Shown piece by piece: positions 21,709 to 52,679 of a DNA stretch of 64,000 nucleotides (within the stretch, counting starts at the first letter, position 1; the number at the start of each line of letters is the position of its first letter). This stretch comes from Spirochaetaceae bacterium. GTDB taxonomy: Bacteria > Spirochaetota > Spirochaetia > DSM-2461. The notes beneath the pieces are model-generated. The model did not search any database. It was not told the DNA's origin and saw nothing but the letters and a program-made list of their open reading frames with translations. The position numbers were made by a program, and so were the translations under genes. The stretch covers positions 128,001-192,000 of the forward strand of contig JAOPTT010000005.1 of assembly GCA_051531975.1 (NCBI GenBank), read 5' to 3'.

Positions 21709-21826
21709 TAATAAAAGCTGAGGAGTTCTAGCGTATAGAAGGAAGGTCAAATGGGTAAAAAAGAAGATTTTTTAAAAAAAAGCTTATCAAAAATATATCT
21801 GCCAATAATGGCAAGGAGGAATCCAT

Positions 21827-23554: not shown

Positions 23555-23566
23555 TGAGAAGGAAAA

Positions 23567-29617: not shown

Positions 29618-29629
29618 GGGGATAGTTAA

Positions 29630-30019
29630 ATGATTACAAATCCAGAATTTCAGAAAAAAATATTAGCCTCATTTCAATTAGAAGTAGAAGTTGTACTAAA
29701 GCAGTTGAAATCCGGTTTATCTACAATAGAGAGTTCCATACCAAATCATAATAAATCTGAATTATTAATAATTCTTCACCGTAATTGTCATAGTTTAAAA
29801 GGTGCTGCACAATCTGTAGGTTTTTATCAGATCCAGATATTAAGTCAGGCGCTTGAGGATTTGTTCTCCCGATTGAAAGAGGATAAAATCTGTTTAGTAA
29901 AAGAAAATTTCAAAAGTATATATCGGGCTCTAGATATCATTGAGGCTTTATCATATTCAAAAGATGAATTAGTGATAGAAGGACTTACTGATCTTATTGG
30001 AGTAATAAATAAATTTTAG
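29630..30019 (+). CDS. Stand-alone Hpt domain protein (CheA P1-like)
   Basis: [15 protein letters not shown], similar to the CheA P1 sequence YRDAHSLKGASRSVG. Confidence 0.85.
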
Positions 30020-30030
30020 GAGGAGTAACT

Positions 30031-32418: not shown

Positions 32419-33535
32419 AAAGATACTTATAGTAGATGATGATAGGCGCAACCTTATGGTACTTGAAGCATTGCTCATCCCCATGGGGTATGAAATATTA
32501 TTAGCTTCGGATGGAATCGAAGCTGTGGAAACCGCAGGGAAAGAGTCCCCGGATTTGATCCTGATGGATATTATGATGCCCCGTCTAAATGGCTATGAAG
32601 CAACAAAACAATTGAAGGGAGCCAATGAAACTAGTATGATTCCTATTGTCATGGTGACAGCCCTAAAAGAGGTTGAAGATCGGGTTCGTGCATTAGAGGT
32701 GGGAGCCGATGATTTTCTGAGTAAACCAATAGATAAAACAGAGTTACGTGCCCGTGTAAAGTCCCTACTAAAGGTAAAAGCTTATAATGATTATATGCTT
32801 GATCAGCAAAAAGAGTTGGAGGAAGCAGTTGATTTAAGGACAAAGCAATTAAAAGAAGCTTTGGAACAGGTCAAAGAAGCTTCTCTAGAGAGTATCTATC
32901 GGCTGACCCGGGCATCTGAGTATAAAGATGAAAATACAGCGGCCCATATTATGCGTGTTAGCCATTATGCAAAAGAGGTAGCCATTAAAATGGGTTTAAG
33001 CGAAAATGAAGCGGATCTTCTTCTTTACGCTTCACCAATGCATGATGTAGGAAAAATAGGAATCCCAGATAGAGTTTTACTTAAACCGGGAAAGCTTGAT
33101 CCTGATGAATGGGTTATTATGAAACAGCATCCAATAATCGGTAAAAAAATTCTGGAGAATTCAAAACGGGATTATATAAAACTAGCTGAAGAGATTGCCA
33201 TCAGCCACCATGAAAAATGGGATGGCAGCGGTTATCCATATGGACTTAAAGGATCTGATATCCCTTTAAGTGGTCGTATTATTGCTGTAGTTGATGTGTT
33301 TGATGCATTATCATCGGATCGTCCCTATCGAAAACAACCCTTCCCTCTGGATAAGATATATATAATGCTTAAAGAGGGCCGTGGAAAACATTTTGATCCC
33401 GATGTTCTAGATGCTTTTTTTGCTATTGAAGATCAAATCCTTGCCATAAAGGAAAAGATTCAAGATAAAAGTATCAGTCTGCTCTTCCAGATTACAGAAA
33501 GTATAGGAAAAAACCAGAAAGGAGAAAAATTATGA
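32411..33535 (+). CDS. REC plus HD-GYP c-di-GMP phosphodiesterase (RpfG-like)
   Basis: [27 protein letters not shown] and HFDP. Confidence 0.93.
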
Positions 33536-33942
33536 GTTTAAGCAATAATATAAAAACCCATTCCAAAACTATACTTGTAGTAGAAGATGATAAGAAGAAT
33601 TTAAGACTAATCAGAGACCTTCTGGTATTTAGTGGATATAAAGTTCTGGAAGCAAGAGACGGTAGACAGGGAGTTGATATTACCAAAAGTAATAAACCTC
33701 ATCTTGTTTTAATGGATATTCAAATGCCAGTTATGGATGGCATTGAAGCTACATCTTTATTAAAAAAAGACCCTGATATTTGTGACATTCCGGTAATAGC
33801 CCTGACATCATATGCTATGAGAGGTGATAAGCAGCGATTCCTGGATGCAGGTTGTGATGGTTACATAACTAAACCTATAGATATTAGTAATTTCCTTGTT
33901 GAGATAGAAAAATATTTAAAGGATAACTTATGTGATGACTGA
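33532..33942 (+). CDS. Single-domain response regulator (DivK/CheY-like)
   Basis: VEDD, MDIQMP, ALTSYAM.GD and GCDGYITKP. Confidence 0.92.
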   Translation: MSLSNNIKTHSKTILVVEDDKKNLRLIRDLLVFSGYKVLEARDGRQGVDITKSNKPHLVLMDIQMPVMDGIEATSLLKKDPDICDIPVIALTSYAMRGDKQRFLDAGCDGYITKPIDISNFLVEIEKYLKDNLCDD

Positions 33943-35389
33943 AAAGAAAAGAGTAATAATCATAATGTTAATATACACAGCAATCACTCTATTTGTTGTT
34001 GATTTTACAATTTTCTTGCTCTACAACGCCGGATTTAATGATAACGAGCAGCAACTTGTACATTTAGTCCAGAGTCAGGCCCGCTTAATGGAGGCTATAG
34101 CCCAGTTTGAACAGTATAGTGATCATTCTCATGATCAAGGATGGAAAGATTCTACTATAATGCAAATAATCTACTCCCATGAGACTTATAGAGGTTTTGG
34201 AGATACTGGGGAATTTACTTTAGCTAAACTTGAAGATGAATCTATTATTTTTGTTCTTAGTCGCCGGCACGATGATCTTTACATCCCAGAAACTATACTT
34301 TTAAATTCGGAATATGCAAAACCCATGCAGCTGGCCCTATTAGGAAAATCGGGAACTGTTGTTGGTTATGATTACCGTAAAAAAATTGTTCTTGCTGCTT
34401 ATGAACCTGTGTCTATGCTAAATCTAGGTCTGGTGGCAAAGGTTGATCTGGAAGAAGTCAGAAAACCCTACATAGAGGCTAGTTTGATAGCCTTAACAAT
34501 CACTATTTTTTTTATATGTCTAGGAGTTGTTGTTTTATATAAAATCAGTGATCCAATGCTAAAAACTCTAAGAGAAAATGGTCTACAGTTGAAAAAAATA
34601 AACAAAGAACTACTTGATGGGATAACAATTAGAAAGGCTAAAGAAGTTGAACTACAAATTGCATATGATAAAATGGAAGAGTCTAGTCGTGCTAAATCTG
34701 AGTTTCTAGATTCCATGAGTCATGAACTTCGTACACCTTTGAACGGTATAATTGGTTTTTCTGATATGCTGAATCAAAATTTTGGAGGAGAACTTAATGA
34801 TAAACAGAGTCAGTATGTCCAGGATATACAGGAAAGTGGTCGACATCTTTTAAGCCTTATAAACGATATATTGGATTTTTCTAAAATAGTATCCGGTAAA
34901 ACAGAATTAGAATTAGCAGAATTTAATCTATATGAATTATTGGAACATAGTTTAGTTATAGTGAATGAGAGATGTATTAAGCGGAATATCAGTCTCAATT
35001 TTAATGTTTCTGAGGATATGCAAAATATAAAGGTAAGAGTCGATAAGTGGAGGTTTAATCAAATTATGTATAATCTTCTTTCTAATGCTGTAAAATTTAC
35101 TCCGGATAGTGGTGATATCTCACTGGATGCTGTCTTGAAGGACAATGTCGTTATTGTCTCTGTTGTAGATTCGGGTATCGGAATAACAGAAGAGCAGCAG
35201 AAGATGATATTTGAAGAGTTTTATCAGGTTAAAGGAGGGACTCAGGATAAAACCCCAGGTACAGGACTAGGATTGAATATTGTTAAGAATATGGTTGAGT
35301 TACACGGTGGAAAATTATGGGTAGTGAGTGAAGGTGAAGGTCTTGGTAGTTGTTTCTCATTTTCTATACCTCTAATCACAGAACTTTAG
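33932..35389 (+). CDS. Membrane sensor histidine kinase with Cache-like periplasmic domain
   Basis: Two TMs flanking DYR...VLAAYEP...GLVAKVD, then SHELRTPL and HATPase motifs. Confidence 0.9.
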   Translation: MMTEKKRVIIIMLIYTAITLFVVDFTIFLLYNAGFNDNEQQLVHLVQSQARLMEAIAQFEQYSDHSHDQGWKDSTIMQIIYSHETYRGFGDTGEFTLAKLEDESIIFVLSRRHDDLYIPETILLNSEYAKPMQLALLGKSGTVVGYDYRKKIVLAAYEPVSMLNLGLVAKVDLEEVRKPYIEASLIALTITIFFICLGVVVLYKISDPMLKTLRENGLQLKKINKELLDGITIRKAKEVELQIAYDKMEESSRAKSEFLDSMSHELRTPLNGIIGFSDMLNQNFGGELNDKQSQYVQDIQESGRHLLSLINDILDFSKIVSGKTELELAEFNLYELLEHSLVIVNERCIKRNISLNFNVSEDMQNIKVRVDKWRFNQIMYNLLSNAVKFTPDSGDISLDAVLKDNVVIVSVVDSGIGITEEQQKMIFEEFYQVKGGTQDKTPGTGLGLNIVKNMVELHGGKLWVVSEGEGLGSCFSFSIPLITEL

Positions 35390-36479
35390 GTAAAACGAAC
35401 CAGAAAGTACTGCCTTTATCAGGTTCACTTATTAAACCTATTTCTCCATTATGAGCCTCGATTACCATTTTACAAAATGTTAACCCCAGACCAGTAGAAT
35501 ACTGTTTGTTTTCACCGTCTATTTTAACCTGTCCAAATTTTTCAAAAACTTTATCATGAAACTCTGTTGGAATTCCTGAACCTTCATCTGTTACCTCTAC
35601 TCTGTGGCTTCCATCTATATTTTCAATTGTAATTCTAACGTTCCCGTCTTCTTTTGTATATTTTATTGCGTTCCCAATTAGATTGTTCATAACACGAAAA
35701 ATAAGGTCTTTATCGCAAGAAATATTAATTTTTTTCTCATTGGAATTAATCATAATTTGATGATCTATGGCTAGAGGTTGTAGAGAATCTACTGATTTTT
35801 GAATAAGAGTAAGTAAATCGCAATTGCATATATTTAGCTCTAGTTTTTCATCTTCCATCTTTTCTATATCCAGTAGGGAACTGATCATCTCAATCAGACT
35901 GTTTAAAATTGCTCTAGAGAAAGTAGCCATTTGTACGATTCCCTGATCTTCTATTTTTTGTTCAAAATATTCCAGATAGCAGTTAATGGAGGTAATCGGT
36001 TGTCGTAAATCGTGAATTATCATATGTGTCAGGCTATCTTTAAGTAGGGTTATTTCTTTAAGTTTTATAAAATTTGTCTTAACTTCATCATGCAGGTGTT
36101 TAGCATATACAGCATTTTTTACACGTAAATTTACTTCAACTTTATCAATAGGTTTTGTTAAGAACTCATTTGCTCCGGCTTCAATGCCTTTTATAAGATT
36201 TTCATGATCAGAAAAGGCTGATACCATAATTACTGGAATTGGGGCAGTTTCAGGATCTTTTTTTAGAATCTTACAGGCTTCAAAACCATTCATTTCCGGC
36301 ATCATAACATCTAAAAGAATAACATCGGGATTTTTTTCATGTGCTTTTTTTATTGCCTGTATTCCATTTACAGCTTCAATTACCTGATAATTGTTCATTT
36401 GAAGCAGACTACTCAGTAAATCTCTATTTCTACGTTCATCATCTACAACTAGAATTAATCCCTGATTATCATCTGACAT
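35376..36479 (-). CDS. Hybrid REC-histidine kinase
   Basis: VVDDE, LDVMMP, HDLRQP, NLIGNA.K and TGLGL. Confidence 0.92.
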   Translation of the reverse strand: MSDDNQGLILVVDDERRNRDLLSSLLQMNNYQVIEAVNGIQAIKKAHEKNPDVILLDVMMPEMNGFEACKILKKDPETAPIPVIMVSAFSDHENLIKGIEAGANEFLTKPIDKVEVNLRVKNAVYAKHLHDEVKTNFIKLKEITLLKDSLTHMIIHDLRQPITSINCYLEYFEQKIEDQGIVQMATFSRAILNSLIEMISSLLDIEKMEDEKLELNICNCDLLTLIQKSVDSLQPLAIDHQIMINSNEKKINISCDKDLIFRVMNNLIGNAIKYTKEDGNVRITIENIDGSHRVEVTDEGSGIPTEFHDKVFEKFGQVKIDGENKQYSTGLGLTFCKMVIEAHNGEIGLISEPDKGSTFWFVLPKVL

Positions 36480-36491
36480 CTTTATTCTCCA

Positions 36492-36614
36492 TCAGCCCTC
36501 AATAAAACTTAGTAGTTTGAACATTCTAAAAAGTTTTTAGATTCCAGCAGTACCTATATAAAGTGCTCTTTCAACCATAGGATCTGTGAAAAAGGCTGTA
36601 ATAACTAATAAAAT
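36492..36614 (-). pseudogene. Remnant of the C-terminal half of a receiver (REC) domain
   Basis: Manual translation: ILLVITAFFTDPMVERALYIGTAGI*KLFRMFKLLSFIEG*. This matches the REC beta4-alpha4-beta5-K-alpha5 pattern with an internal stop and no start. Confidence 0.55.
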
Positions 36615-36818: not shown

Positions 36819-37658
36819 ATGTTTAAGATAATATTGATGTTGTTTATACCCTATTTTATTTTCTCCCAGGATAAAGTCTTAAAACTAGTATATAAAGAGA
36901 CTGGTAAAGTTCCCTATATGCAAAAAGCTCCCGATAACTCCGGTTTATATTTAGATCTAATGAGCAGAGCCGCTGAAAAAATTGGATTTGAGATTGACGT
37001 TATTCGTCTTCCAAAACAAAGAACATATAAAATGCTTGAACTTGGTGATGCTGATCTATATGCCAGTGGAGAATTCAGAGATTATAGATCTAATTTTCTA
37101 TTTTATTTTAGCAATGGACTATATCGAGAAGAGATTTTTTATGGGTTAACAACTTCTGACATACCTGAATTATTATCCATATCCGATATAAACAGATATA
37201 ACCTGACCTGGGAATTTGAATTAGGAAATTCATGGCCAATTTTAGCAAAAAGGTATAATGTGAAATATCATCAAATTAAAGATGGAAATGTAATAGATAA
37301 AGCTATTCTGCTATTAAAAGCAGGAAGGCCTCTGTTTTTCAGATTTACTATTGAGGAAATAGAAGAATATTTAAAATCAAATAATTTAGATTCATTGGGA
37401 AGTTTAGGAATAAAAATCCATCAAAACTTAGGTGATAAACATCAGGCTCCACTTTATGCATCATTCTCCAGATTTTCAAAGTATTATAAAGAACAAAAAA
37501 ATATAAAATTCAATAGTGATAAAAGGCTGGGAGTCGATAATTTTCCTGTTGAATTAGTACCTGGATCTATTCCATATAAACTACAATCATCCCTTTTAGA
37601 GATGATAGAGTCAGGGGAAGTAGAACTTTTGATTAAAAAATATGGGTTTAAAAAATAA
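36819..37658 (+). CDS. Periplasmic substrate-binding domain protein (SBP family 3-like)
   Basis: Signal peptide, PY...GLY.DL...A, LP.QR...L..G.AD and a terminal M..SGE...LI.KY. Confidence 0.7.
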   Translation: MFKIILMLFIPYFIFSQDKVLKLVYKETGKVPYMQKAPDNSGLYLDLMSRAAEKIGFEIDVIRLPKQRTYKMLELGDADLYASGEFRDYRSNFLFYFSNGLYREEIFYGLTTSDIPELLSISDINRYNLTWEFELGNSWPILAKRYNVKYHQIKDGNVIDKAILLLKAGRPLFFRFTIEEIEEYLKSNNLDSLGSLGIKIHQNLGDKHQAPLYASFSRFSKYYKEQKNIKFNSDKRLGVDNFPVELVPGSIPYKLQSSLLEMIESGEVELLIKKYGFKK

Positions 37659-37683
37659 AAGGCCGCAAAACGACCTTTTATTT
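37653..37683. terminator. Probable bidirectional intrinsic terminator
   Basis: AAATAAAAGGCCG-CAAAA-CGACCTTTTATTT between convergent genes. Confidence 0.6.
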
Positions 37684-37688
37684 ATTTT

Positions 37689-39473
37689 TTAATCATGTAC
37701 TGTACGTTTAGTATAATGGGTGTGCAGAAGTTCATGAGCTTTGTGACTGTTAGGTGTCCCAAGAAAATCGTGATAAATAGTTTTGATCAAAGGATTCTCA
37801 TGAGATTTCCTCAATTGTTTTCCTTCATCTTCTTGAATTATTGCACGAAACCGCAACTTCTTAACTTCTTCTGTGGACCTTCTAGGTTGTCCTCCACCGG
37901 AAATACAACCACCGGGACAGCCCATAACTTCAATTAAGTGATATGGGGATTTTCCAGCTTTTACATCCTCCATTAGAACTTTAGCATTACCCAGACCTGA
38001 TGTCGCAGCTACTCTTGCAGTTACACCATTTAGCCAGCTATATTCAGGTAAACAATTTTCAAATAAAAGACTCGCTTCACGTATGCCTTTAATATCCATG
38101 AGATCTGTTACATGAAGTCCATCCATTGGTAACTCTTTACCCGTAACCAGTTCATAGACAGTTCTAATTGCAGCCTCTGTAACACCTCCAGAATTGGCAA
38201 AAATATCAGCAGCACCACTTGAGCGACCTAAAGGATCATCAAACTCAGAATCATGTAGATTAACAAAATCAATAGTGTGTTCACGGATTATCTTTCCAAG
38301 CTCTCTTGTAGTGAGCACATAGTCTACATCCTGAAAGCCACTTGCTCTCATTTCCGGTCTTGCCGCTTCATATTTTTTTGCAGTACAAGGCATAATGGAG
38401 ACAGAGACAATATCTTTTGGATCAATATTTTTACTCTTGGCATAATAGGTTTTAATAATTGTACCCATCATCTGCTGTGGGGATTTTGCAGTTGAAACAT
38501 TTGCTGTTAACTCTGGGAAATAATGTTCAAGATATTTAACCCATCCTGGAGAACAGCTTGTTGTCATTGGAAGTGAAACAGTGTTGTCTTTATCTACAAT
38601 TGCTTTCTTGAGACGTGTTAATAGTTCTGTTCCTTCTTCAATTATTGTTAAATCCGCCGAAAAGTTTGTATCAAAAACAGAATCAAATCCTAAAAGATTT
38701 AACGCTGTAACCATTTTTTTGGTAACAAGAGTTCCAGGAGGAAGCCCCTGTGTTTCCCCTAATGCAGCCCTGATTGCAGGAGCAGTTTGCACAACTACAT
38801 GTTTAGTTGGGTCATTTATTGCAGCTCTTACATTTTCTATATCATCTCTTTCATAAATTGCATTTACCGGGCATACAGCAATGCACTGACCACAGTTAAT
38901 ACATATTGTATCTCCTAAGTTTTCAAATGCAGGCTGAACTAAAGAACTAAAACCTCTTTCCATTATTCCTATGGCATGAATATCCTGTACGTCCTGACAA
39001 ACTGTGATACATCGTCTACAGAGAATACATTTACTGTTATCCCTTACTATGGATCGTGACGACTGATCGATAGTCTCATCGCAAATACTAGTTTCAAAAC
39101 GATATGCATCAACACGGAACTGATTTGCCAATTCCTGAAGTTCACAGTCCATACTCCTATCACAACTTAGACAGTCTTTTCTATGAGCTGATAACATTAG
39201 TTCCAATGCTGTTTTCCTTGCTTTATGGATCTGTGCTGTATTAGTATCAATTACCATACCCTCAGTAACTTGTAATACACAAGCAGCAAGTAAATTGGGT
39301 CTTCCCTCTACTTGAACTACACAAATCCGACAAATCCCATGTGCATGTAGTTCCGGCAGGTGACATAGTGTAGGTATATTAATTCCTATATCCTTTGCTG
39401 CCTTTAATACTGTTGTTCCAGCGGCCACGACCGTTTGGATTCCATTAATAGTTAATTTGATATTTTCATTCAT
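37689..39473 (-). CDS. hydA: [FeFe] hydrogenase catalytic subunit (group A3, HydA/HndD-like)
   Basis: H-cluster motifs TSCSPGW, MPCTAKKYE and EVMGCPGGC.GGGQP. N-terminal 2Fe-2S, His-ligated 4Fe-4S and 2x4Fe-4S motifs. ATG at 39473 follows GGGAGGA. Confidence 0.95.
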   Translation of the reverse strand: MNENIKLTINGIQTVVAAGTTVLKAAKDIGINIPTLCHLPELHAHGICRICVVQVEGRPNLLAACVLQVTEGMVIDTNTAQIHKARKTALELMLSAHRKDCLSCDRSMDCELQELANQFRVDAYRFETSICDETIDQSSRSIVRDNSKCILCRRCITVCQDVQDIHAIGIMERGFSSLVQPAFENLGDTICINCGQCIAVCPVNAIYERDDIENVRAAINDPTKHVVVQTAPAIRAALGETQGLPPGTLVTKKMVTALNLLGFDSVFDTNFSADLTIIEEGTELLTRLKKAIVDKDNTVSLPMTTSCSPGWVKYLEHYFPELTANVSTAKSPQQMMGTIIKTYYAKSKNIDPKDIVSVSIMPCTAKKYEAARPEMRASGFQDVDYVLTTRELGKIIREHTIDFVNLHDSEFDDPLGRSSGAADIFANSGGVTEAAIRTVYELVTGKELPMDGLHVTDLMDIKGIREASLLFENCLPEYSWLNGVTARVAATSGLGNAKVLMEDVKAGKSPYHLIEVMGCPGGCISGGGQPRRSTEEVKKLRFRAIIQEDEGKQLRKSHENPLIKTIYHDFLGTPNSHKAHELLHTHYTKRTVHD

Positions 39474-39492
39474 GATAATTTCCTCCCAGTTC

Positions 39493-42400
39493 CTAGACTT
39501 CACACTCACGATAATCACATCGTAAACATCTCTTTACCTCATCAAGGATTTTATCTTCCCAGTTGACTCCACGATTAACTAAAAGAAAGTTCTTAATTCT
39601 ATCTTCTGCAGCTGAATATTCAACTTCAACTCTATCGGATTCAACAGGATCGACATCTGAATTAAAATAAACATCAGGAGAAATTGTTTTTTGCCATGAA
39701 AAGTTTTTAATAATACCAGGATTCAAATATTTTTCAATTGATACACCTACTTTCTCACCCTGTCCAATAGCCACTGCAAGATTTGCCAGACCTAGAACAT
39801 CTCCAGCAGCAAATACTTTAGGATCTGAAGTTTGAAAAGTATCTTTATCTACTTTTATTGAACCATTTCTATTTTTCTGGAGACCTTCAGCAAAAGAAAA
39901 ATCAATTACTTGAGAAATAGCAGGGATCAGGTAATCACATTCATATTCCACAATGCTCTCTTCTCCGTCCAAAGGACTTGGACTTTTTCTTCCTGAAGAA
40001 TCAAATCCACCTAAAGACTGTTTTCGACATCGAATTGCTTTGACTTTTCCATCTGAAACTATAATCTCATCTATATCAGTTAATTCTACAGGATTAATAC
40101 CCTCTTCTATTAATTCTGATATTTCCTCTTCCTCTGCTGGCATCTCATCAATTGTCCTTCGGTATGCCAGAGTTATCTTTTTTGCACCTAGGCGCAGAGC
40201 GGTTCTTGCAACATCTACTGCTGTACTTCCACCCCCAATAATAACAATATTACCTTCAACTTTCTTAAGATCATTATGTGCTACCATCCATAAGAAGTCA
40301 GTTCCACCAATGATCCCTTCAGCTTCCTCACCACTCATGTTCAGTTTTTTGCTTTCCCAACCACCAACTGTAATTACTACAGCATCATGTTCTTCTTTAA
40401 TCTGATCCATGGTAATGTCTTTACCAACAAGTGTAGATAATTTACAATCCACACCCATTTCTATAATATTATTTATCTCATTATTCAATAAAGCCTTAGG
40501 ATATCTGTATTCGGGAATCCCATACATCATCATCCCTCCTAATTTTTCCTGGCCTTCATAAATAGTTACATTATGTCCTAACCTTTTTAGGAAAAATGCA
40601 GCAGTTAATCCTGCAGGACCTCCACCAATTATTGCAATGTTCTTTATCTGGGAAGCTGTCCTAGTCATAATTGGTGGCATAGGATAAACACCCTGTTTTC
40701 CACCTTTTTCAGTCATGAAACGTTTAACTTCCCGGATAGCCAATGGAGCATCCAGGGTATCTCGACGACATTTTGTCTCACAAGGATGTGTACAGGTCAA
40801 CCCACATGCTATTGGGAACGGGTTTCTATCCAGATGGGAAATAAGGGCTTCTTCATACCTTTTTTCAGATGTTAATGCGACAAAAGCTGGAACATTTACA
40901 CCTGCAGGACAGGCATTTTGACAAGGGGCATATACTAACTCTGTACACACTCCTGCTGGACATTTTTTATCTCTTATATGAGCTTCATATTCCTCTCGGA
41001 AATTTTTAATAGTTGATAATACTGGATTTGGTGCAGTTTGACCTAATCCACATATAGCTGTAATTTTAATATCTTCACCAAGGCTGATAAGCTCTTCAAT
41101 ATCTCCCTCTTTTCCTTGACCATTTGATATACGATTTAAAATATCCAGCATCTGTTTTGTTCCTATACGACACGGAGGACATTTTCCACAAGATTCATCC
41201 TGGATAAATTCCATAAAGAACTTTGCTAGGTCAACCATACAGGTATCTTCGCTCATAACAATTAAACCACCAGAACCCATCATGGCTCCAGCTTGTTTTA
41301 AAGATTCATAATCAATTGATACATTGAGTTTGTTTTTAGGTAGACATCCACCTGACGGGCCACCAATCTGGGCAGCTTTGAAATCTTTAGCATCAATAAC
41401 ACCACCTCCGATATCAAAAATTATCTCGCCTAGAGTAATACCCATAGGAACTTCTATTAAACCTACATTTTTAACTGCACCGGCTAATGCAAAAATCTTT
41501 GTACCTTTGGATTTTTCTGTACCTATTGTATTTAATTTATCTGCACCAAGGCGGATAATGTGAGGTATATTTCCAAACGTTTCTACATTATTTACAAGGG
41601 TAGGGCAGTCCCATACTCCTTTTTGGGCAGGAAATGGTGGCTTTGGCCAAGGTTCACCTCTTTTACCTTGAATGGAATTGATTAATGCAGTCTCTTCTCC
41701 ACAGACAAATGCTCCTGCTCCCATTCGTATTTCGATATCAAAATTAAAATTTGTATTACAGATATTGCCACCTAATAATCCGTATGACCTGGCCTGTTTT
41801 ATTGCTAGATCAAGTCTATCAATTGCCAGTGGATATTCTGCTCTACAGTAGATGTATCCTCTCTCTGCACCAATAGCAAATGCAGCTAGAGCCATGCCTT
41901 CAAGGATAGTGTGGGGTAAATCCTCAAGTTGGCTTCTATCCATAAAAGCCCCCGGATCACCTTCGTCAGCGTTACATACTACATACTTTTTTCCATTGTC
42001 AGATTTTGATTTAGCAGTAATCTGCCATTTTAAACCGGTTGGAAAACCACCACCACCACGGCCTCGAAGTCCTGAATCTATAACTGAGGTTACAACATCT
42101 TCAGGTTTCATTGATGTAATAGCCTTAAGCAGTCCGTTATATCCACCAACTGCAATATATTCATCAATCTCTTCAGGGTTTATAAGTCCCGCATAATCCC
42201 GGGCAAATATTTGTTGTTTCCCAAAAAATGGAATATCTTTCATTTCCATAACTGGTTTGTTTGTATTTGGATCTTTATATACTAATGTCCCTACAGTATC
42301 ACCATTTATCAGATGGCTGGTTACTATTTCACTAGCATTTTTAGGTTCGATTTTTGTATAAAGAACACCGTCAGGATATATCATAACCAGGGGTTCCAAT

Positions 42401-42642
42401 TCACACATTACATTGTTCCCTGTTTTTATAATTTCCACTTTATTACTTAGTTCTTTATCTTTGTTAACTTCAGCAGTTATTGCTGCTGCTACTTTTTCAC
42501 AATCCTGGGATGGATTCCCGGTACCACCACAGACTAAAATGAATTTCCTGTCTGTTTTTGCACCAATTTTCCGAGGAAGCATTTTCTCTCTATTTGTCTC
42601 TACAATTTTTTCCAGATCAATTAAACTCTTTATCATACACAT
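39493..42642 (-). CDS. NuoF/HydB-like diaphorase fused to a GltD/NfnB-like FAD oxidoreductase
   Basis: GLRGRGGGGFP, CNADEGDPG, CGEETAL and ESCGKCPPCR, followed by PCQNACP, IIGGGPAGL and IIGGGSTAVD...YRRT. Confidence 0.92.
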   Translation of the reverse strand: MCMIKSLIDLEKIVETNREKMLPRKIGAKTDRKFILVCGGTGNPSQDCEKVAAAITAEVNKDKELSNKVEIIKTGNNVMCELEPLVMIYPDGVLYTKIEPKNASEIVTSHLINGDTVGTLVYKDPNTNKPVMEMKDIPFFGKQQIFARDYAGLINPEEIDEYIAVGGYNGLLKAITSMKPEDVVTSVIDSGLRGRGGGGFPTGLKWQITAKSKSDNGKKYVVCNADEGDPGAFMDRSQLEDLPHTILEGMALAAFAIGAERGYIYCRAEYPLAIDRLDLAIKQARSYGLLGGNICNTNFNFDIEIRMGAGAFVCGEETALINSIQGKRGEPWPKPPFPAQKGVWDCPTLVNNVETFGNIPHIIRLGADKLNTIGTEKSKGTKIFALAGAVKNVGLIEVPMGITLGEIIFDIGGGVIDAKDFKAAQIGGPSGGCLPKNKLNVSIDYESLKQAGAMMGSGGLIVMSEDTCMVDLAKFFMEFIQDESCGKCPPCRIGTKQMLDILNRISNGQGKEGDIEELISLGEDIKITAICGLGQTAPNPVLSTIKNFREEYEAHIRDKKCPAGVCTELVYAPCQNACPAGVNVPAFVALTSEKRYEEALISHLDRNPFPIACGLTCTHPCETKCRRDTLDAPLAIREVKRFMTEKGGKQGVYPMPPIMTRTASQIKNIAIIGGGPAGLTAAFFLKRLGHNVTIYEGQEKLGGMMMYGIPEYRYPKALLNNEINNIIEMGVDCKLSTLVGKDITMDQIKEEHDAVVITVGGWESKKLNMSGEEAEGIIGGTDFLWMVAHNDLKKVEGNIVIIGGGSTAVDVARTALRLGAKKITLAYRRTIDEMPAEEEEISELIEEGINPVELTDIDEIIVSDGKVKAIRCRKQSLGGFDSSGRKSPSPLDGEESIVEYECDYLIPAISQVIDFSFAEGLQKNRNGSIKVDKDTFQTSDPKVFAAGDVLGLANLAVAIGQGEKVGVSIEKYLNPGIIKNFSWQKTISPDVYFNSDVDPVESDRVEVEYSAAEDRIKNFLLVNRGVNWEDKILDEVKRCLRCDYRECEV

Positions 42643-43175
42643 GATACGGCCTCACTTTCACTGTAGGATTTTAATATTTGTTTTAATTTATTTGATTTAA
42701 CTCTTCGATGGGTATCATTATTTACCATTACTACAGGAGCAAGGGCACAAGCACCAACACATCTGACAATTTCCAGAGAGTACATACCATCGTCAGTAGT
42801 TTCACCGATATTAATGTCTAAATCATTTTGGAGCTTTTCAAGTAGGACTTTTCCACCACGAACAAAACAAGCTGTTCCCAGACATACTTTAACTGAATAT
42901 TTTCCTTTGGGAAAACGATTAAAAAAGGAGTAAAATGATGCTACCCCGGCAACTTTGATTACAGATGAATCTAGCTTCTTTGCTACGTATTTAATAACTT
43001 CTTTTGGAAGATAGCCAAAAATACTTTGTGCAATATAAAGTGCATTTATCATGTTGCCTTCCTGATCCTCATAGAGTTTCAGAATTTCATCAAGACGAGC
43101 ATACTTTTCTACCTCTGTTAATTCCTCACATTTACATCCCTCGGTCGCAACCTTTAATGGGTTTAATAGCGACAT
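42633..43175 (-). CDS. NuoE/HydC-like 2Fe-2S subunit
   Basis: VCLGTAC and RCVGACALAP. Confidence 0.93.
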   Translation of the reverse strand: MSLLNPLKVATEGCKCEELTEVEKYARLDEILKLYEDQEGNMINALYIAQSIFGYLPKEVIKYVAKKLDSSVIKVAGVASFYSFFNRFPKGKYSVKVCLGTACFVRGGKVLLEKLQNDLDINIGETTDDGMYSLEIVRCVGACALAPVVMVNNDTHRRVKSNKLKQILKSYSESEAVSCV

Positions 43176-43399: not shown

Positions 43400-44545
43400 C
43401 TATTTTCTAATGCCCTCAGTTATCTCTTTTAAAATATCCAGGTATCTTGTTCCATAGTCTTCATATTTATAACCAGCCCCGTAATCCAGTCCACTTTCTG
43501 AAACATCTTTAGTTGTCTCTGGCTGTGTACCAGCAGTAGGTTCTATTTGTGAATCTTCATGCCATTCGTTAAATGATGTAATTAACATAATATTTCCACA
43601 ATTTTCATCTAGGTTAGGGAATGCTGCATCTTGTATCATCGCTTTAAAAACATCTCCATAACTAGAGCCTGACTCTTTATTAAAATATCTTGGAGCAGGG
43701 TGGTGGTTCGCTTCCATACGTACACCAGTATCAACATAACCAGGTGCAACTGAAGGTATAAAATGATAGCCATATTTTTTTGCCTTTTTCTTAGCGGCTG
43801 CATAAATTCTATTTAACTTTTTTATCTCTTTTTTAGTAGCACCATTTTTACCACCACCAACTGATTGTCCATATACATCGTAATTATTTACAGCATCGAG
43901 GTATCCACTTTTTGCAGCATTAATAAATACAAATAGGTCGTCACCAATAATATAGAGTTCAGGAAATTGCTCTTTTAATAACCGTAACTGATCGGCTCTA
44001 TCACCTTTAAAATACTCTCTAGTAAGGTACATGTATACAACCGGCTTACCATCAATTCTAAGATAGTTCGCATCACTAAAATAGTTATCTTTCAAATACT
44101 GCATATCTGTAAATAGGTTTGTATAATCAGGATTTTCAAAACTACCTAATCGACCTGCTGACTCGTATAGTATGGCATAATCTAACTTGTGTGCATTAGG
44201 ATGTGTCATTATATGGTCTTTTAAAGCCTTATCCTCTCCTCCGTTTGGTCCCCACCAGCTGGAAATCCAGAAATCAATTCCACTTTGCACACTCCACTCT
44301 ATATGTTGACTAATTACTTCAGGATCCATTGAGTCGTACTCTCCAAGTGCTGGGAGTTGCTGGGGATCAAGGTAAGTCCGAAATGTGTGGTCTATTGCTG
44401 TATGTGCTCCTCTTTCAACTCCGTACCATGGGTAGTAAAAAGCTCCAACTTTTAATTCTGTTATCTCTTTGCTACTCTTTTCTGTAATACAAGATAAGAA
44501 AAAAGGAATCATTATTGTTAAAATTGTAATACGTAGTAATTTCAT
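43400..44545 (-). CDS. GH99-like glycoside hydrolase lipoprotein
   Basis: Lipobox FLSC, AFYYPWY, G.YDS.D, SWWG and the catalytic-type ITSFNEWHE..QIEP. ATG at 44545 follows GGAG. Confidence 0.82.
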   Translation of the reverse strand: MKLLRITILTIMIPFFLSCITEKSSKEITELKVGAFYYPWYGVERGAHTAIDHTFRTYLDPQQLPALGEYDSMDPEVISQHIEWSVQSGIDFWISSWWGPNGGEDKALKDHIMTHPNAHKLDYAILYESAGRLGSFENPDYTNLFTDMQYLKDNYFSDANYLRIDGKPVVYMYLTREYFKGDRADQLRLLKEQFPELYIIGDDLFVFINAAKSGYLDAVNNYDVYGQSVGGGKNGATKKEIKKLNRIYAAAKKKAKKYGYHFIPSVAPGYVDTGVRMEANHHPAPRYFNKESGSSYGDVFKAMIQDAAFPNLDENCGNIMLITSFNEWHEDSQIEPTAGTQPETTKDVSESGLDYGAGYKYEDYGTRYLDILKEITEGIRK

Positions 44546-44567
44546 GTTAAATCTCCATTTAAATTTA

Positions 44568-44577
44568 TGATATATCA
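44568..44577. promoter_or_regulatory. TGATATATCA palindrome (putative GntR-family operator)
   Basis: Perfect 10-bp palindrome, also found at 47804 and 49528. Confidence 0.55.
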
Positions 44578-44689
44578 AATTATTTTATTCTATATATTGT
44601 GAACCAAAGAGATAGACCCTATCCTCAAAAACATGGGATTTTCCATCGGGATGTACTCATTTGATGGAAGAAAAGGTTTTAATCTCTCT

Positions 44690-46279
44690 CTATTTATGTA
44701 TTACGTTCTCTGATACTAATCTTACTAGCTCATCTGGTGTTACAACTTTTACATTGGAATCTAGACCATCTATAACATTTTGGATGTTGTCCAGACCGTT
44801 ACTCCAGGCGTGAACTAAAACAAGGGAGTAACCTTTGCCACTAGTTGGATCTTTATCATTTTTGTTAAGACTCTTAATTACAGACTCTTCGTTACAACCT
44901 CTTAAACCTTCCCACAACATCTCCCGGGGTGTAATTATCGGTTTATTATTGGACCAACGTATTTTACCTTTATGATATTTATGATTACTGTATTCCAGAT
45001 AGAATAGTGCATCAATATTCTCTTGTTTTGTATAGGTATCCCATATGCTATTTTTTTTAAATGATCCAAAATCAATGATTTCAACAACTCCTAAATCAGC
45101 CTGTCCCATTCTTTTATTAAGTCTCTCTGTATGGATAGATAGCGCCTCGGGACTGTAGTCACTTGGGTAGAGGTATCCACTACCGGAAGGTCCAACAACA
45201 AAATGATCCATTGAAGCTTCCTCGTAATACCGGTTAAGAATAGTTGGAGCAACGTCGAGCATTATTGGGGATGTAGCCCAACCCATTGGAATAGAAGCTC
45301 TTTTATCATTTCCCCACCATTTGGAATCGGAATATAAATCACCAAGCATCCATTGGATATTATCCCCATCACTCATTAAAAAAGAGACATAATGAACATC
45401 TTCTTCTACAATAGTTGTAACATTGTCCTTCTGCTTCATCTCTACAGCATCAAAGCCACTAAATACAGAGAGATTTCTAGTATGATCTGCCGGTATAGTA
45501 TAGAGATCACTTTTAGAGCTCATTCCAACAAATTTTTCTTCACCACCTTTAGCTCCCCAACCAAAAACTGGGACATCCTGATTAGTCCACATAGCCACCT
45601 CTTTTCTAAAAGAGGAGTTACCATCAAAGAATATATAAGCACCTGTAGCAACTGCAAAATCTCTTAATGCTGGAATAAGAACCTCTTTCTGTTCAAAGAC
45701 TATATCTCTGGAAAGTTGATTTTTATAGTTTTCAAAGACCCATTTATCATCTTTTCCTCGGACATCCTGAACCATAGTGAATCCGGCATCTTTTATTTTT
45801 TGTTCCAGTGATTCATCCACAGCTGGAGCCTTTAAGAGGGATACGAGACTGTTGGCAACATTAATAGACTGATCATTTAAAGACTGATTATCATGAGTCA
45901 ATTCTCCTACAGAGCAGAGGATGTATCCATCAATATACTGCTTAAATATTTCTAATACAGACCAAGGATCACTAATTTCCACTAACTTAACCCCTTTTGC
46001 AGCTAGATCCTCCAACCATACATCGTATCCTCCATAGTGAGGATGTAAATATATCTGGGTTGTTGAAAAGTTAGAAACTAATCCTTGTAAAGTACTAAAC
46101 AGCAGTTTCTCTTCAGTAGATAGTGTATTTGCATTTATAACAAGAAGCTTTTCTGCTTTTAAAATTCTATTGGTTACATCAGATAACTCAGCAGCTCTGT
46201 CTGCTGAATCTTTTGTTGTATATGATTTACAGCCCAATAAAGCTAACATTATAATAGCAATGTTCAATATATTTTTCAT
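44690..46279 (-). CDS. GxGYxYP-family putative glycoside hydrolase lipoprotein
   Basis: Lipobox LLGC, LQGLV, MSDGDN.QW and GSGYLYP. Confidence 0.85.
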   Translation of the reverse strand: MKNILNIAIIMLALLGCKSYTTKDSADRAAELSDVTNRILKAEKLLVINANTLSTEEKLLFSTLQGLVSNFSTTQIYLHPHYGGYDVWLEDLAAKGVKLVEISDPWSVLEIFKQYIDGYILCSVGELTHDNQSLNDQSINVANSLVSLLKAPAVDESLEQKIKDAGFTMVQDVRGKDDKWVFENYKNQLSRDIVFEQKEVLIPALRDFAVATGAYIFFDGNSSFRKEVAMWTNQDVPVFGWGAKGGEEKFVGMSSKSDLYTIPADHTRNLSVFSGFDAVEMKQKDNVTTIVEEDVHYVSFLMSDGDNIQWMLGDLYSDSKWWGNDKRASIPMGWATSPIMLDVAPTILNRYYEEASMDHFVVGPSGSGYLYPSDYSPEALSIHTERLNKRMGQADLGVVEIIDFGSFKKNSIWDTYTKQENIDALFYLEYSNHKYHKGKIRWSNNKPIITPREMLWEGLRGCNEESVIKSLNKNDKDPTSGKGYSLVLVHAWSNGLDNIQNVIDGLDSNVKVVTPDELVRLVSENVIHK

Positions 46280-46310
46280 GAGGTTTTCCTAAATGTATAT
46301 GATTAATTAG

Positions 46311-46343
46311 ATCTTTTAGCAGAGATGCGCTCTACTAAAAGAT
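46311..46343 (-). terminator. Stem-loop between the MFS and GxGYxYP genes
   Basis: ATCTTTTAGCAGAG-ATGCG-CTCTACTAAAAGAT. Confidence 0.55.
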
Positions 46344-46362
46344 AGTGATTATATTTCTTTAT

Positions 46363-47733
46363 TTAAATATGCGCAGCATGTTTTTCATTAATGCCTTTCT
46401 GAATCTCTCTTTCACGTTTAAGACCTAGGGGAACACATGCCAATAATATAATACCTACAGTAAGTATAGCAGCTGGAACAAACCCTGTTCCAATCCGAAT
46501 AGCTTGTACAACCTCAGGCGCCTGAACTTTAACAGTGCCGTCATAACCTGTAGCTGATAATAACGTACTTAAAATTAAAGGTTGAAAACTTGCCGCTGGA
46601 ATCATTACAACAGCCATAATACCTCTAACAACACCTGGTTGTCTTTTTCCTGTCTTTAACTCTATGTGGTCTATTACTAAACCAGCAAGAGGTTCATTTA
46701 TTGCAGATGGGAAAGCAAAACCTAATAGAATTACAATATAAGCAGCTGCTGCTACCCAGTAATTTATTTGAAAACCTAGGATTGCAAATCCTATAACAGA
46801 GATAATTAATCCTTTCCAAAGAGTTCTTAGAGCTCCATTCTTTCTAACAGCCAGTACTACTAATGGTAAAATTGCCATTTGAGCAAAACCGGTAATAAGA
46901 TCCGGAATAGTTGCTTTTAAACCTGATACAAGGACTACATTATCCATATAGTATATATATCCTGCAAAGTAGTTTCCTGTCGCTGCCTGAATGAATAAAA
47001 ATGCTGTGATAAATAGCAGGAATGTTCTATCAGTAAAAAGTTCTTTTCCAAGTCTAAACAGTTGTTTTAGACCTCTTGTTACTTCCAGTTTTTCATAAAA
47101 CTTAGGATCTTCCTTAACAAATTTAGAACCAAACCATACAAGAGCAAGACCTAAGAGAATAGATACTGAAAAAATTGCAACAAGTGTTCCTTGAGAATAA
47201 TCTCCAGTTAAGAACCATATTGGGATCATACCACCTAAGAAAGTAGGGATCATCTTAACATAACTACCAATAACCTGAACTTCTGTCCTGTCATCCATTG
47301 ATATAAAAGTATTAACAGTAAATGCCATAAAACTAACGTTTAGTAGTGTTTGAGCTCCTTCATAAATTACCAATAAAACAAGTAGTGATACCGCTATTAG
47401 CATTTGACTCCAACTAGGAGGTGATAACAATATTAATATCATAGGTATACCAATTACAGGAATTGAATAACGTATTAGCGGTTTATATTTACCTATACCC
47501 TTCCTGAATGGTTGTTTATCAGCCCAATAACCAATAACAGGATCGTTTACACCATTCCAAATACTAAAAATAAGAAAAACTAAACCGTACATAGCAGGGC
47601 TTAATCCAACAACATCAGTAAAGTATTTCATAAGTGAACTATTAACTATAATAGAAATCCATACTCCACCACCTCCTACAAGATTTAAGAGAATCATTTT
47701 TGGTATAGTATAATACCCCTTTTTTTTACCCAT
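46363..47733 (-). CDS. MFS glycoside-pentoside-hexuronide (GPH) symporter
   Basis: YFTDVVGL, WNGVNDP..G..AD, D..ELKTG.R..G and about 12 TMs. Confidence 0.88.
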   Translation of the reverse strand: MGKKKGYYTIPKMILLNLVGGGGVWISIIVNSSLMKYFTDVVGLSPAMYGLVFLIFSIWNGVNDPVIGYWADKQPFRKGIGKYKPLIRYSIPVIGIPMILILLSPPSWSQMLIAVSLLVLLVIYEGAQTLLNVSFMAFTVNTFISMDDRTEVQVIGSYVKMIPTFLGGMIPIWFLTGDYSQGTLVAIFSVSILLGLALVWFGSKFVKEDPKFYEKLEVTRGLKQLFRLGKELFTDRTFLLFITAFLFIQAATGNYFAGYIYYMDNVVLVSGLKATIPDLITGFAQMAILPLVVLAVRKNGALRTLWKGLIISVIGFAILGFQINYWVAAAAYIVILLGFAFPSAINEPLAGLVIDHIELKTGKRQPGVVRGIMAVVMIPAASFQPLILSTLLSATGYDGTVKVQAPEVVQAIRIGTGFVPAAILTVGIILLACVPLGLKREREIQKGINEKHAAHI

Positions 47734-47802
47734 CTATTCCTCCGATGTTATATAATCATTCAATATTATTTTCATTGTAAAATCTTTAATAAAAAACATT
47801 CA

Positions 47803-47843
47803 ATGATATATCATATGTTTGATTATTATTATTTGATATAACA
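47803..47843. promoter_or_regulatory. Paired TGATATA(T/A)CA sites
   Basis: ATGATATATCAT at 47803-47814 and TGATATAACA at 47834-47843. Confidence 0.55.
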
Positions 47844-47924
47844 TTAACATGAATAACTTAGATGTCAAGATAAAGATATTATAAACTTTGAAGTAGGAGA
47901 GAGTAATACATAGTATTGCTCTTT

Positions 47925-49433: not shown

Positions 49434-49495
49434 TTTCCACTCCAAATAAGATTGAATTTAATAATTGACAGGTAATTATTTTGTGTTGTATTAAA

Positions 49496-49537
49496 TGTTA
49501 TATCACCCATTATGGCATCTGTAAAGCTGATATATCA
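49496..49537. promoter_or_regulatory. Paired TG(A/T)TATATCA sites upstream of the sulfatase
   Basis: TGTTATATCA at 49496-49505 and TGATATATCA at 49528-49537. Confidence 0.55.
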
Positions 49538-49673
49538 ATTGGAAAATTGAACTAACTATAAATTATATAATTTATACAAAACAACGATAAGACTACTTTA
49601 ATGAATAGATATTAACTAAATTATAGGAGAGGTAGTATATTAACCTTTATTTTCACACTACCTAGAATCATTT

Positions 49674-49689
49674 AGTTACGCGTGTAACT
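49674..49689. promoter_or_regulatory. Putative auxiliary LacI-family operator
   Basis: AGTTACGCGTGTAACT, a palindrome with central CG. Confidence 0.6.
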
Positions 49690-49828
49690 GCATAGGTATA
49701 TACTAATAAAAAGAATTAGATGATATGAAATCACTTTTGTAAAGCTTTAATATCCTCAGTCTAAGTCCGTAATTCAGCCTTTAGACCGTAAAACATTCAT
49801 TATTCATAACAAAATATAAAAATATTAC

Positions 49829-49879
49829 TTGACGACTCAATATAGTGATGTTAGATTTAAGCCAGTAACGCGGGTAACT
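49829..49879 (+). promoter_or_regulatory. Sigma70-type promoter and LacI-family operator
   Basis: TTGACG-N17-TAGATT with extended TG, followed by AGTAACGCGGGTAACT at 49864-49879. Confidence 0.65.
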
Positions 49880-49913
49880 AAGTGTTTCTGAAAAAGATTT
49901 ATTGAGGTATGCA

Positions 49914-50936: not shown

Positions 50937-50999
50937 TTATTTTTACTCGATGTGTGAGGCCTCTTCATCGGGAATGTTATATAAAAATTAGGAGATACA

Positions 51000-52604: not shown

Positions 52605-52622
52605 AGTTTAATTTTATATAGA

Positions 52623-52652
52623 GGGCAGGGTAAAACCTGCCCCTTTTTTTTT
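52623..52652 (+). terminator. Intrinsic terminator-like hairpin after the SBP gene
   Basis: GGGCAGG-GTAAAA-CCTGCCC-C followed by T9. Confidence 0.75.
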
Positions 52653-52679
52653 AGATAGATTTATAAATAAGGAGAGCAT

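What the first reader, a model, noticed from the sequence alone, without database searches (positions are those of the whole stretch)
37689..43175. [FeFe] hydrogenase whose NuoF subunit is fused to an NADPH-type GltD/NfnB flavodomain
Seen: the 1049-aa beta subunit has a complete FMN/NAD NuoF core (PGAFMDR, CGEE, GGPSGG). In place of the usual C-terminal 2x[4Fe-4S] ferredoxin-like domain it carries a GltD-like module: helical Fe-S Cys motifs, FAD motif GGGPAG, second dinucleotide motif GGGSTA plus YRRT, and a terminal RCLRC. Known: HydABC enzymes bifurcate between NAD and ferredoxin through that C-terminal domain, and GxGxxA plus YRR is typical of NADPH-binding GltD/NfnB proteins. Inference: this complex could link H2 with two pyridine-nucleotide sites (NADH and NADPH), or bifurcate at the added FAD, rather than follow the standard mechanism. 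Similar fusions may already be catalogued.
Basis: partly seen in the sequence, partly recalled or inferred. Interest (0 to 1): 0.75.

Follow-up and report, generated by a model that had tools for sequence, protein, structure and literature searches.

The report
Iron hydrogenase with built-in NADPH module
This iron-iron hydrogenase carries an extra flavin module where relatives dock ferredoxin, so it likely links hydrogen gas to both NADH and NADPH; the design is widespread and was described from genomes in 2024, and this copy has also lost two cysteines of a neighbouring iron-sulfur site.

Summary
An intact hydC-hydB-hydA operon encodes a 1049-aa HydB whose ferredoxin-docking domain is replaced by a GltD-like FAD module. 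It is no artefact: 68 of 80 related genome loci carry the full fusion, 61 of them beside an H-cluster HydA. The architecture is in print (Zheng & Huang 2024, 'sub-type I BfuB'), and this scan met it before on other DNA (19 findings). Nine literature searches found no biochemistry. The added module is of the StnC/NfnA(Bfu) type, a non-bifurcating NADP(H) site in solved structures: its Lys ligand is kept in 169 of 169 homologues and no NfnA partner lies in the operon. Bifurcation at the added FAD is therefore unlikely. The FMN site keeps NAD-type and bifurcating-type residues. Best reading (0.5): a ferredoxin-free enzyme coupling 2 H2 to NAD+ and NADP+, poised near 100-150 Pa H2. Only this copy and its two closest relatives show the loss, which may loosen coupling. 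Verdict: new member of a catalogued but untested kind, with a small derived variation.

The parts
42633..43175 (-). hydC (NuoE-like gamma subunit, 180 aa); C1 [2Fe-2S] ligands C98, C103, C139, C143 intact
   Evidence: PF01257 E 9e-50; Cys positions
39493..42642 (-). hydB-GltD fusion (1049 aa)
42268..42555 (-). [quoted passage not shown] Its [2Fe-2S] site is degenerate: C38, N43, N76, C80, plus a spare C48. Asn codons at 42514-42516 and 42415-42417
   Evidence: alignment to 7q4v_B, 7t2r_B, 8a6t_B; DNA; homologue survey
40945..42174 (-). NuoF core (aa 157-566): FMN/NAD site (A232, M234, F312, E316-E317, F337), GGPSG 427-431, B1 [4Fe-4S] C485/488/491/531, Zn-hinge ligands C468, H555, C561, C566
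   Evidence: Zn site by homology to T. sibiricus NfnB
39496..40929 (-). GltD-like module (aa 572-1049). Proximal [4Fe-4S]: C578, C617, C621, K640. Distal [4Fe-4S] (inferred): C574, C625, C1039, C1042. FAD Rossmann fold GGGPAG, R713, NADP motif GGGSTA...YRR
   Evidence: alignment to 9bov_A and 8oh5_C; ligands C108/C147/C151/K170 of C. saccharolyticus NfnA
39517..39531 (-). C-terminal RCLRC. It aligns with the C-terminal RCxxC of StnC/NfnA and with the N-terminal RCxxC of NfnB, i.e. a permuted arrangement
   Evidence: second stretch against 4ylf_B and 5jca_L
37689..39473 (-). hydA, [FeFe] catalytic subunit (ORF from GTG 39518; likely start 39473). H-cluster motifs TSCSPGW, MPCTAKK, EVMGCPGGCISGGGQ; no C-terminal extra cluster
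37653..37684 (-). A/U-flanked hairpin directly after the hydA stop, between converging genes; likely terminator
   Evidence: -15.3 kcal/mol, z -4.9, 0 of 200 shuffles as stable; not called by the consensus scan

Best explanation
This is a three-subunit iron-iron hydrogenase whose flavoprotein subunit has an FAD module in place of the ferredoxin-docking domain, and it likely couples H2 to NAD at its FMN site and to NADP at the added FAD without ferredoxin (predicted 2 H2 + NAD+ + NADP+ = NADH + NADPH + 2 H+). Shown by sequence: an intact H-cluster subunit, an intact C1 site, a NuoF core with NAD-type and bifurcating-type residues, the Zn hinge, loss of the 2x[4Fe-4S] ferredoxin domain, and an StnC-type FAD module starting 8 residues after the hinge. 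Inferred path: H-cluster -> HydA clusters -> B1 -> FMN. One pair leaves as hydride to NAD+. The other goes through the swinging HydC C1 cluster to the module's distal and proximal [4Fe-4S] clusters, then FAD and NADP+. The FAD would be a plain two-to-one electron converter, and any bifurcation would sit at FMN/B1/C1. With NAD at -280 mV and NADP at -370 to -380 mV, equilibrium is about 100-150 Pa H2, between an NADH-only enzyme (3 Pa) and an NADH/ferredoxin enzyme (15 kPa). The likely role in a fermenter is H2 release from NADPH plus NADH when H2 is kept low, reversing to NADPH formation above that pressure. In this copy the N-terminal [2Fe-2S] cluster is likely absent or replaced by a single metal ion.
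For: Module closest to 9bov_A (373 bits), 8oh5_C (357) and 9n5u_A (316), ahead of NfnB 4ylf_B (243) and GltD (175). K640 aligns with StnC/Csac K170 and is kept in 169 of 169 full-length homologues; so are YRR, R713, A232/M234, E316/E317 and the four Zn ligands. StnC FAD is reported as non-bifurcating, NfnB has Glu at this site, and K170A/C or K165E nearly abolish physiological activity. B3/B4 are where ferredoxin binds and are needed for bifurcation in T. sibiricus NfnABC; they are missing here. T. kivui's NADP-type FMN site has CGES and PPR340; this protein has CGEE and PPF, and F/Y in 169 of 169 homologues. The same genome also encodes a canonical HydCDBA, a non-bifurcating-type HydAB (GEPGTFKDR) and NfnAB, so a third function is plausible. 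Zn replaces the N-terminal cluster in two active bifurcating enzymes. Thermodynamics; the NADP potential is recalled.
Against: No enzyme of this type was found characterised. The NAD/NADP gap is only about 90-100 mV, so strict coupling may not be needed. In T. kivui HydABC, removing the N-terminal cluster (C82G/C86G; C82 corresponds to N76 here) cut bifurcation about tenfold, which argues for weaker coupling in this copy. Lys versus Glu is a correlate, not proof; R713 (NfnB R201 equivalent) is present and its geometry is untested. The homologues were chosen as best hits to this protein and a few are near-duplicates, so 169 of 169 overstates independence. The host has other NADPH routes (NfnAB, PntB).
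Confidence: 0.5

Rival explanations
1. Uncoupled or leaky two-nucleotide hydrogenase: H2 exchanges with NAD at FMN and with NADP at FAD independently along a branched wire, and the complex also acts as an NADPH:NAD+ transhydrogenase. This is most likely for this copy, which has lost the N-terminal cluster ligands.
For: C43N and C76N are confined to a 3-member clade nested among Cys-keeping relatives. That domain diverges faster than the core (73-78% vs 89-94% identity). The equivalent T. kivui variant loses about 90% of bifurcation. The NAD/NADP gap is small.
Against: Bifurcating-type signatures (A232/M234, GGPSG, Zn hinge) are kept here and in 168-169 of 169 homologues. Active bifurcating enzymes exist without this cluster. 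An ungated NADPH-to-NAD+ path would waste reducing power.
Confidence: 0.22
2. Four-substrate hub: ferredoxin still docks, at the distal helical [4Fe-4S] cluster as in NfnB, so the enzyme joins H2, NAD, NADP and ferredoxin.
For: In NfnB the two [4Fe-4S] clusters of this fold carry electrons to ferredoxin. The host has RnfC and a canonical HydB, so ferredoxin chemistry is present.
Against: The known Bfu ferredoxin site (B3/B4) is gone. In StnC the homologous cluster faces the next protein cluster, not ferredoxin. Here it follows the hinge directly and likely faces HydC.
Confidence: 0.15
3. The added FAD is a second, NfnB-like bifurcation centre (postulated by Zheng & Huang 2024 and by the first reader).
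For: Same fold as NfnB; R713, equivalent to NfnB R201, is invariant; proposed in print.
Against: Lys rather than Glu at the proximal cluster in 169 of 169. An NfnA homologue lies in only 4 of 80 loci, and in three of these it has its own NfnB-like partner. The host's NfnA sits beside its own Glu-type NfnB on another contig. In StnC and Csac NfnA the same FAD is terminal and non-bifurcating.
Confidence: 0.07
4. Assembly artefact or decaying gene.
For: No single listed contig of DNA run X1 spans the junction; two cluster ligands are lost.
Against: Uninterrupted ORF; relatives at 91% and 86% identity have the same fusion and the same ligand loss; all other cofactor ligands are intact; no indels or joints in the operon in X1; 68 of 80 genome loci hold the full fusion.
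Confidence: 0.02

Closest known systems
Sub-type I BfuABC group A3 [FeFe]-hydrogenase (Zheng & Huang 2024, PMC11406978)
   Same: B3/B4 domain replaced by DPD_II plus FAD/NAD(P) domain; M3a-type HydA with Ser in motif P1; no BfuD, as in their 'ND' node, which includes Spirochaetota homologues.
   Different: This copy lacks two ligands of the N-terminal [2Fe-2S] site. The paper postulates FAD bifurcation and its main text has no occurrence of 'NADP'. It is genome-based only.
Electron-bifurcating HydABC of A. woodii (7q4v), T. kivui (8a6t), T. maritima (7p5h)
   Same: HydA, HydC and the NuoF core with the Zn hinge; 57% identity to 7q4v_B in the structural match.
   Different: No C-terminal 2x[4Fe-4S] ferredoxin domain; about 480 extra residues with FAD; degenerate N-terminal cluster; NAD-type rather than T. 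kivui's NADP-type FMN site.
StnABC (S. ovata, 8oh5) and NfnABC (C. saccharolyticus 9bov, T. sibiricus 9n5u)
   Same: Same GltD-like module with Lys ligand, conserved Arg and, for 8oh5 and 9bov, a C-terminal RCxxC in register; same HydBC-type core.
   Different: There the module sits in the A subunit and feeds B1 as the mid-potential donor, with ferredoxin as low-potential acceptor. Here it sits on the B subunit in place of the ferredoxin site, and the A subunit is a hydrogenase.
NfnAB/NfnSL (T. maritima 4ylf, P. furiosus 5jca)
   Same: Fold of the FAD/NADP module with two [4Fe-4S] clusters.
   Different: Glu ligand, N-terminal RCxxC and an NfnA partner; none of these is found here.
Non-bifurcating NADH-dependent HydAB(C) of Syntrophus/Syntrophomonas (Losey et al. 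2020, PMC7311640)
   Same: No ferredoxin domain; N-terminal cluster likely missing.
   Different: This protein keeps A232/M234 and GGPSG and has the Zn hinge and FAD module. The host encodes a separate enzyme of that type.

Membership tests
Sub-type I BfuABC (Zheng & Huang 2024) | B3/B4 domain replaced by DPD_II plus C-terminal FAD/NAD(P) domain | tested here: met
   PF14691 547-649, PF07992 668-962, no Fer4; definition
Sub-type I BfuABC (Zheng & Huang 2024) | Adjacent bfuC and H-cluster bfuA without C-terminal A5 cluster; Ser in P1; BfuD optional | tested here: met
   paper sections 7 and 8
Sub-type I BfuABC (Zheng & Huang 2024) | Phylogenetic placement in the authors' sub-type I cluster | tested here: inconclusive
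   The authors' sequences were not used. Hydrogenedentes-named homologues P0093 and P0117 share the architecture, but the backbone joining the fusion clades is unresolved in a quick tree
HydDB group A3 [FeFe] | Group A catalytic subunit with a NuoF-domain neighbour (NuoF overrides GltD) | tested here: met
   rule read in PMC5037454. The HydDB server itself was not run
Bfu family (canonical HydABC) | FMN, B1 [4Fe-4S], C1 [2Fe-2S] and Cys3His hinge site | tested here: met
   ligands present by alignment
Bfu family (canonical HydABC) | C-terminal B3/B4 2x[4Fe-4S] ferredoxin-like domain | tested here: not met
   absent; present in the host's canonical HydB
Bfu family (canonical HydABC) | Four-Cys site in the N-terminal thioredoxin domain (B5 in Adams numbering, B2 in Katsyv numbering) | tested here: not met
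   C43N, C76N
Bfu family (canonical HydABC) | Coupled reduction of NAD(P)+ and ferredoxin | not testable with these tools
   needs purified enzyme
StnC / Bfu-NfnA type NADP(H) module | Lys ligand at the FAD-proximal cluster, conserved Arg, C-terminal RCxxC | tested here: met
   K640, R713, RCLRC
StnC / Bfu-NfnA type NADP(H) module | Module inserted in the NuoG-like A subunit | tested here: not met
   fused to the B subunit; HydA has an H-cluster instead
NfnAB (FAD-bifurcating) | Glu ligand at the proximal cluster | tested here: not met
   Lys; the host's own NfnB has Glu
NfnAB (FAD-bifurcating) | NfnA partner subunit encoded alongside | tested here: not met
   none in the operon; NfnA homologue in 4 of 80 related loci
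NfnAB (FAD-bifurcating) | Arg hydrogen-bonded to FAD N5 | not testable with these tools
   R713 present; geometry needs a flavin-bound structure
Non-bifurcating NADH-dependent HydAB(C) | T/S at 232, K/S/A at 234, no GGPSG | tested here: not met
   A232, M234, GGPSG 427-431. The paper's third criterion (F367) could not be mapped by number; F312, where the host's non-bifurcating paralogue has Tyr, is Phe

The most novel reading that the evidence does not exclude
A ferredoxin-free bifurcating hydrogenase: the FMN/B1/C1 core strictly splits H2 electrons between NAD+ and NADP+, works without the N-terminal [2Fe-2S] cluster, and fills a 100-150 Pa H2 window that neither NADH-only nor NADH/ferredoxin hydrogenases cover. 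It would be a reaction not found described for any Bfu enzyme in the searches made, hidden under the HydDB A3 label across at least 11 named phyla, and a natural minimal-core test of the HydABC mechanism.
Probability: 0.35. Interest if true: 0.78.

Novelty: new member of a known kind. Interest (0 to 1): 0.42.

Why it matters
Many hydrogenases filed as ferredoxin-bifurcating (group A3) may use NADPH instead. That would change redox models of fermenters and syntrophs, because the usable H2 pressure shifts about 100-fold. The mechanism of HydABC-type bifurcation is still debated. An enzyme with two optically readable nucleotide ends and, in this lineage, a natural loss of the contested N-terminal cluster would make the minimal-core hypothesis directly testable. 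The architecture itself is not new.

Tried and rejected
Assembly artefact: rejected. FAD bifurcation: down-weighted. NADP specificity at FMN: rejected by comparison with T. kivui. Regulation: the sigma-70 scan was at chance level (30 found vs 28.2 expected). A recalled Rex box gave 8 matches vs 7.9 expected, none upstream of hydC. More members of the Cys-lacking lineage: the protein search with residues 1-175 returned only P0001 and P0002 above 45% identity, and the metagenome scan found nothing above 43% (those loci were not used further). Names and members of the closest protein clusters could not be looked up and stay unknown. Single versus multiple origin of the fusion: unresolved; the quick tree needs 2 changes, and one origin is not excluded (45 non-close fusions were sampled at random). 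Expression: RNA run X2 (same sample as X1) gave 5 short contigs of depth 2-4, 4 in hydB/hydA and 1 intergenic, with none on the flanking genes. This is too weak to count, since DNA can be in the library. Foldseek found no solved chain covering both halves (best query TM 0.52). No complex prediction was run, because HydB plus HydC exceeds the size limit and the pair is textbook.
Full report
Observation. The minus strand carries three overlapping ORFs: hydC 42633-43175, hydB 39493-42642 (1049 aa) and hydA 37689-39518, likely starting at ATG 39473. A stable hairpin follows the hydA stop. Pfam shows a NuoF core followed by Fer4_20 and Pyr_redox_2, with no ferredoxin-type Fer4 domain. HydA passes the NCBIfam NADH-dependent group A6 cut-off and has all three H-cluster motifs. 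HydC keeps its four cluster cysteines. The AlphaFold model from a 96-sequence alignment is confident throughout (pLDDT 89.4, pTM 0.85). Solved structures match either half but never both.

Reality and spread. Searching with junction-spanning residues 440-760, 119 of the 120 listed proteins cover the whole region. The 7980 hits at E <= 1e-40 are not a count of fusions, since either half alone can score. Of 80 genome loci kept, 68 hold a full-length fusion. Of these 68, 66 have hydC directly upstream, 64 a hydA-like gene directly downstream, and 61 show both H-cluster motifs tested; they span 11 named phyla. Two loci (L058, L069) instead place the fusion beside formate-dehydrogenase-like genes that score below the curated cut-off. 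Among 40 relatives of the host genome, 13 match at E <= 1e-90 (52-56% identity) and 0 of 3 in the same genus. All 11 of those loci examined show the junction and the Lys. The nearest named homologues are from spirochaetes, so the host is likely one (inference). DNA run X1, which may be the source, shows no indel or joint in the operon and one substitution in one minor contig.

The added module. It is closest to the NADP(H) modules of C. saccharolyticus NfnA (9bov_A), S. ovata StnC (8oh5_C) and T. sibiricus NfnA (9n5u_A), well ahead of bifurcating NfnB and of GltD. By that alignment C578, C617, C621 and K640 equal the C108/C147/C151/K170 ligands of the FAD-proximal cluster, and R713 equals StnC R239. 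The terminal RCLRC is in register with StnC's and corresponds to NfnB's N-terminal RCxxC, so it likely completes the distal cluster with C574 and C625. I aligned 169 full-length homologues (101 of 120 proteins of at least 985 aa, plus 68 of 80 loci; shorter ones dropped; some near-duplicates). K640, R713, YRR, A232, M234, E316/E317 and the Zn-hinge ligands were invariant. StnC's FAD is reported as non-bifurcating, and NfnB has Glu at the Lys position. An NfnA homologue occurs in 4 of 80 loci, in three cases with its own NfnB-like partner. That YRR marks NADP binding is recalled knowledge, backed by the NADPH-bound StnC structure.

The FMN site. Numbering matches T. maritima HydB over residues 226-344. 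A232/M234 and GGPSG meet two criteria for bifurcating beta subunits. The host's own non-bifurcating paralogue has GEPGTFKDR, Tyr for F312 and GGASG. NADP-specific T. kivui HydB has CGES and PPR340; this protein has CGEE and PPF, so the site is NAD-type.

The N-terminal thioredoxin domain reads CGGTGN...TGNNVMC where HydB has CGGTGC...TGCFGLC. The codons are AAT and AAC, each two changes from Cys, and X1 shows no other letter there. Of 169 homologues, 116 have the CxxxxC form with C76/C80, 48 have an HndB/HydD-like GxGxCG form with C76/C80, 3 are truncated, and 2 (P0001, P0002) share the loss (H43, N76). Those two and this protein form a clade with 100% SH-aLRT support inside a 16-member clade whose other 13 keep four Cys (quick tree). 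The domain diverges faster than the core. The published evidence cuts both ways. The T. kivui C82G/C86G variant lost about 90% of bifurcation, but Zn replaces this cluster in two active NfnABC enzymes. C38, C48 and C80 could still hold one metal ion (inference).

Host context. The genome (98.5% complete) has HydG, RnfC, PntB and NfnAB with Glu-type NfnB. It also has a canonical hydC-D-B-A cluster next to rex, a non-bifurcating-type HydAB and a bifurcating-type formate dehydrogenase. The fusion enzyme is a third hydrogenase type in one cell. With NAD at -280 mV, ferredoxin at -500 mV and H2 at -414 mV (abstract of PMC9304861) and NADP at -370 to -380 mV (recalled), equilibrium H2 is 3 Pa for NADH alone, 98-145 Pa for NADH plus NADPH, 3-7 kPa for NADPH alone and 15 kPa for NADH plus ferredoxin.

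Mechanism. In Bfu enzymes, C1 swings from FMN to B3/B4, where ferredoxin binds. Here the distal cluster of the added module begins 8 residues after the hinge, where B3/B4 would be. The best reading is that it takes the low-potential electrons to FAD and NADP+ (0.5). Rivals are uncoupled dual-nucleotide activity (0.22), retained ferredoxin use (0.15), FAD bifurcation (0.07) and artefact (0.02). All electron-transfer steps are inferred.

What is known. Zheng & Huang 2024 (PMC11406978) describe this architecture as sub-type I BfuB in 45 Hydrogenedentota clusters and other phyla, and postulate FAD bifurcation. I read its abstract, the first seventh of the text, sections 7 and 8, passages, one part of supplement 2 and a supplement term search; figures and most of the large data file were not seen and may show N-terminal cluster losses. 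By HydDB's rule the enzyme files as A3. Other papers seen: PMC10482914 (passages, section 9), PMC11829005 (passages, sections 9 and 12), PMC12018979 (passages, sections 6 and 10), PMC10021017 (passages, sections 8 and 9), PMC7311640 (passages, section 17), PMC9304861, PMC5037454 and PMC10134865 (passages), and PMC7483475 (listing only). Searches found no biochemical study of the fusion; the library lacks most subscription journals. This scan holds 19 earlier findings on the fusion in other genomes, and the 8 shown read it much the same way. A word search for the lost N-terminal cysteines returned none. My reading was recorded before these were shown, and they are not independent support.

Verdict. 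The fusion is real, widespread, catalogued and untested. This locus is a new member with a derived loss of two cluster ligands. Interest 0.42.

Noticed in passing
L058:2542-9123 and L069:2713-9150: The same HydC plus HydB-GltD fusion lies beside split formate-dehydrogenase-like genes instead of an [FeFe] HydA (TIGR01591 at 632 and 550 bits, below the 666 cut-off), so the module may serve other donors.
   Followed up: partly
L022-L080 (e.g. L023:5830-9099): 48 of 169 fusions have an HndB/HydD-like N-terminal domain (GxGxCG, three Cys). A rex gene lies in 43 of the 80 loci, all among L022-L080 and none in L001-L021 or this window.
   Followed up: partly
L023-L078, about 0.4-1 kb downstream of hydA (e.g. 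L024:11303-13309): A roughly 670-aa protein 24-29% identical to HydA recurs after the operon in many loci; possibly a sensory group C hydrogenase.
   Followed up: no
window 40804-40806 (HydB C613): C613 is invariant in 169 of 169 fusions, although StnC and Csac NfnA have Ile there; the StnC C114 position is V/I/A/T. It is a possible alternative ligand or tuner of the proximal cluster.
   Followed up: no
L084:3713-7815 (G000:C10:60712-64814): The host's nfnAB lies directly behind a 593-aa ferredoxin plus Lys-type GltD protein that ends a membrane-bound complex I-like operon: a third NADP(H)-module architecture in this genome.
   Followed up: partly
window 19118-36479: A long chemosensory and two-component cluster (CheW/CheR/MCP/CheA/CheB, several hybrid histidine kinases, an HD-GYP-like regulator; named from the sequences by eye) lies next to the hydrogenase operon.
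   Followed up: no
window 36283-36612: Loose ends and a 287-base skip in run X1 suggest a short repeated or variable element in the intergenic stretch; one RNA contig of X2 also maps here.
   Followed up: no
window 43400-54626: Sugar-utilisation cluster (GH99-like hydrolase by Pfam; transporter, sulfatase-like protein, LacI-type regulator and ABC binding protein named by eye) directly upstream of hydC, first four genes on the same strand.
   Followed up: no
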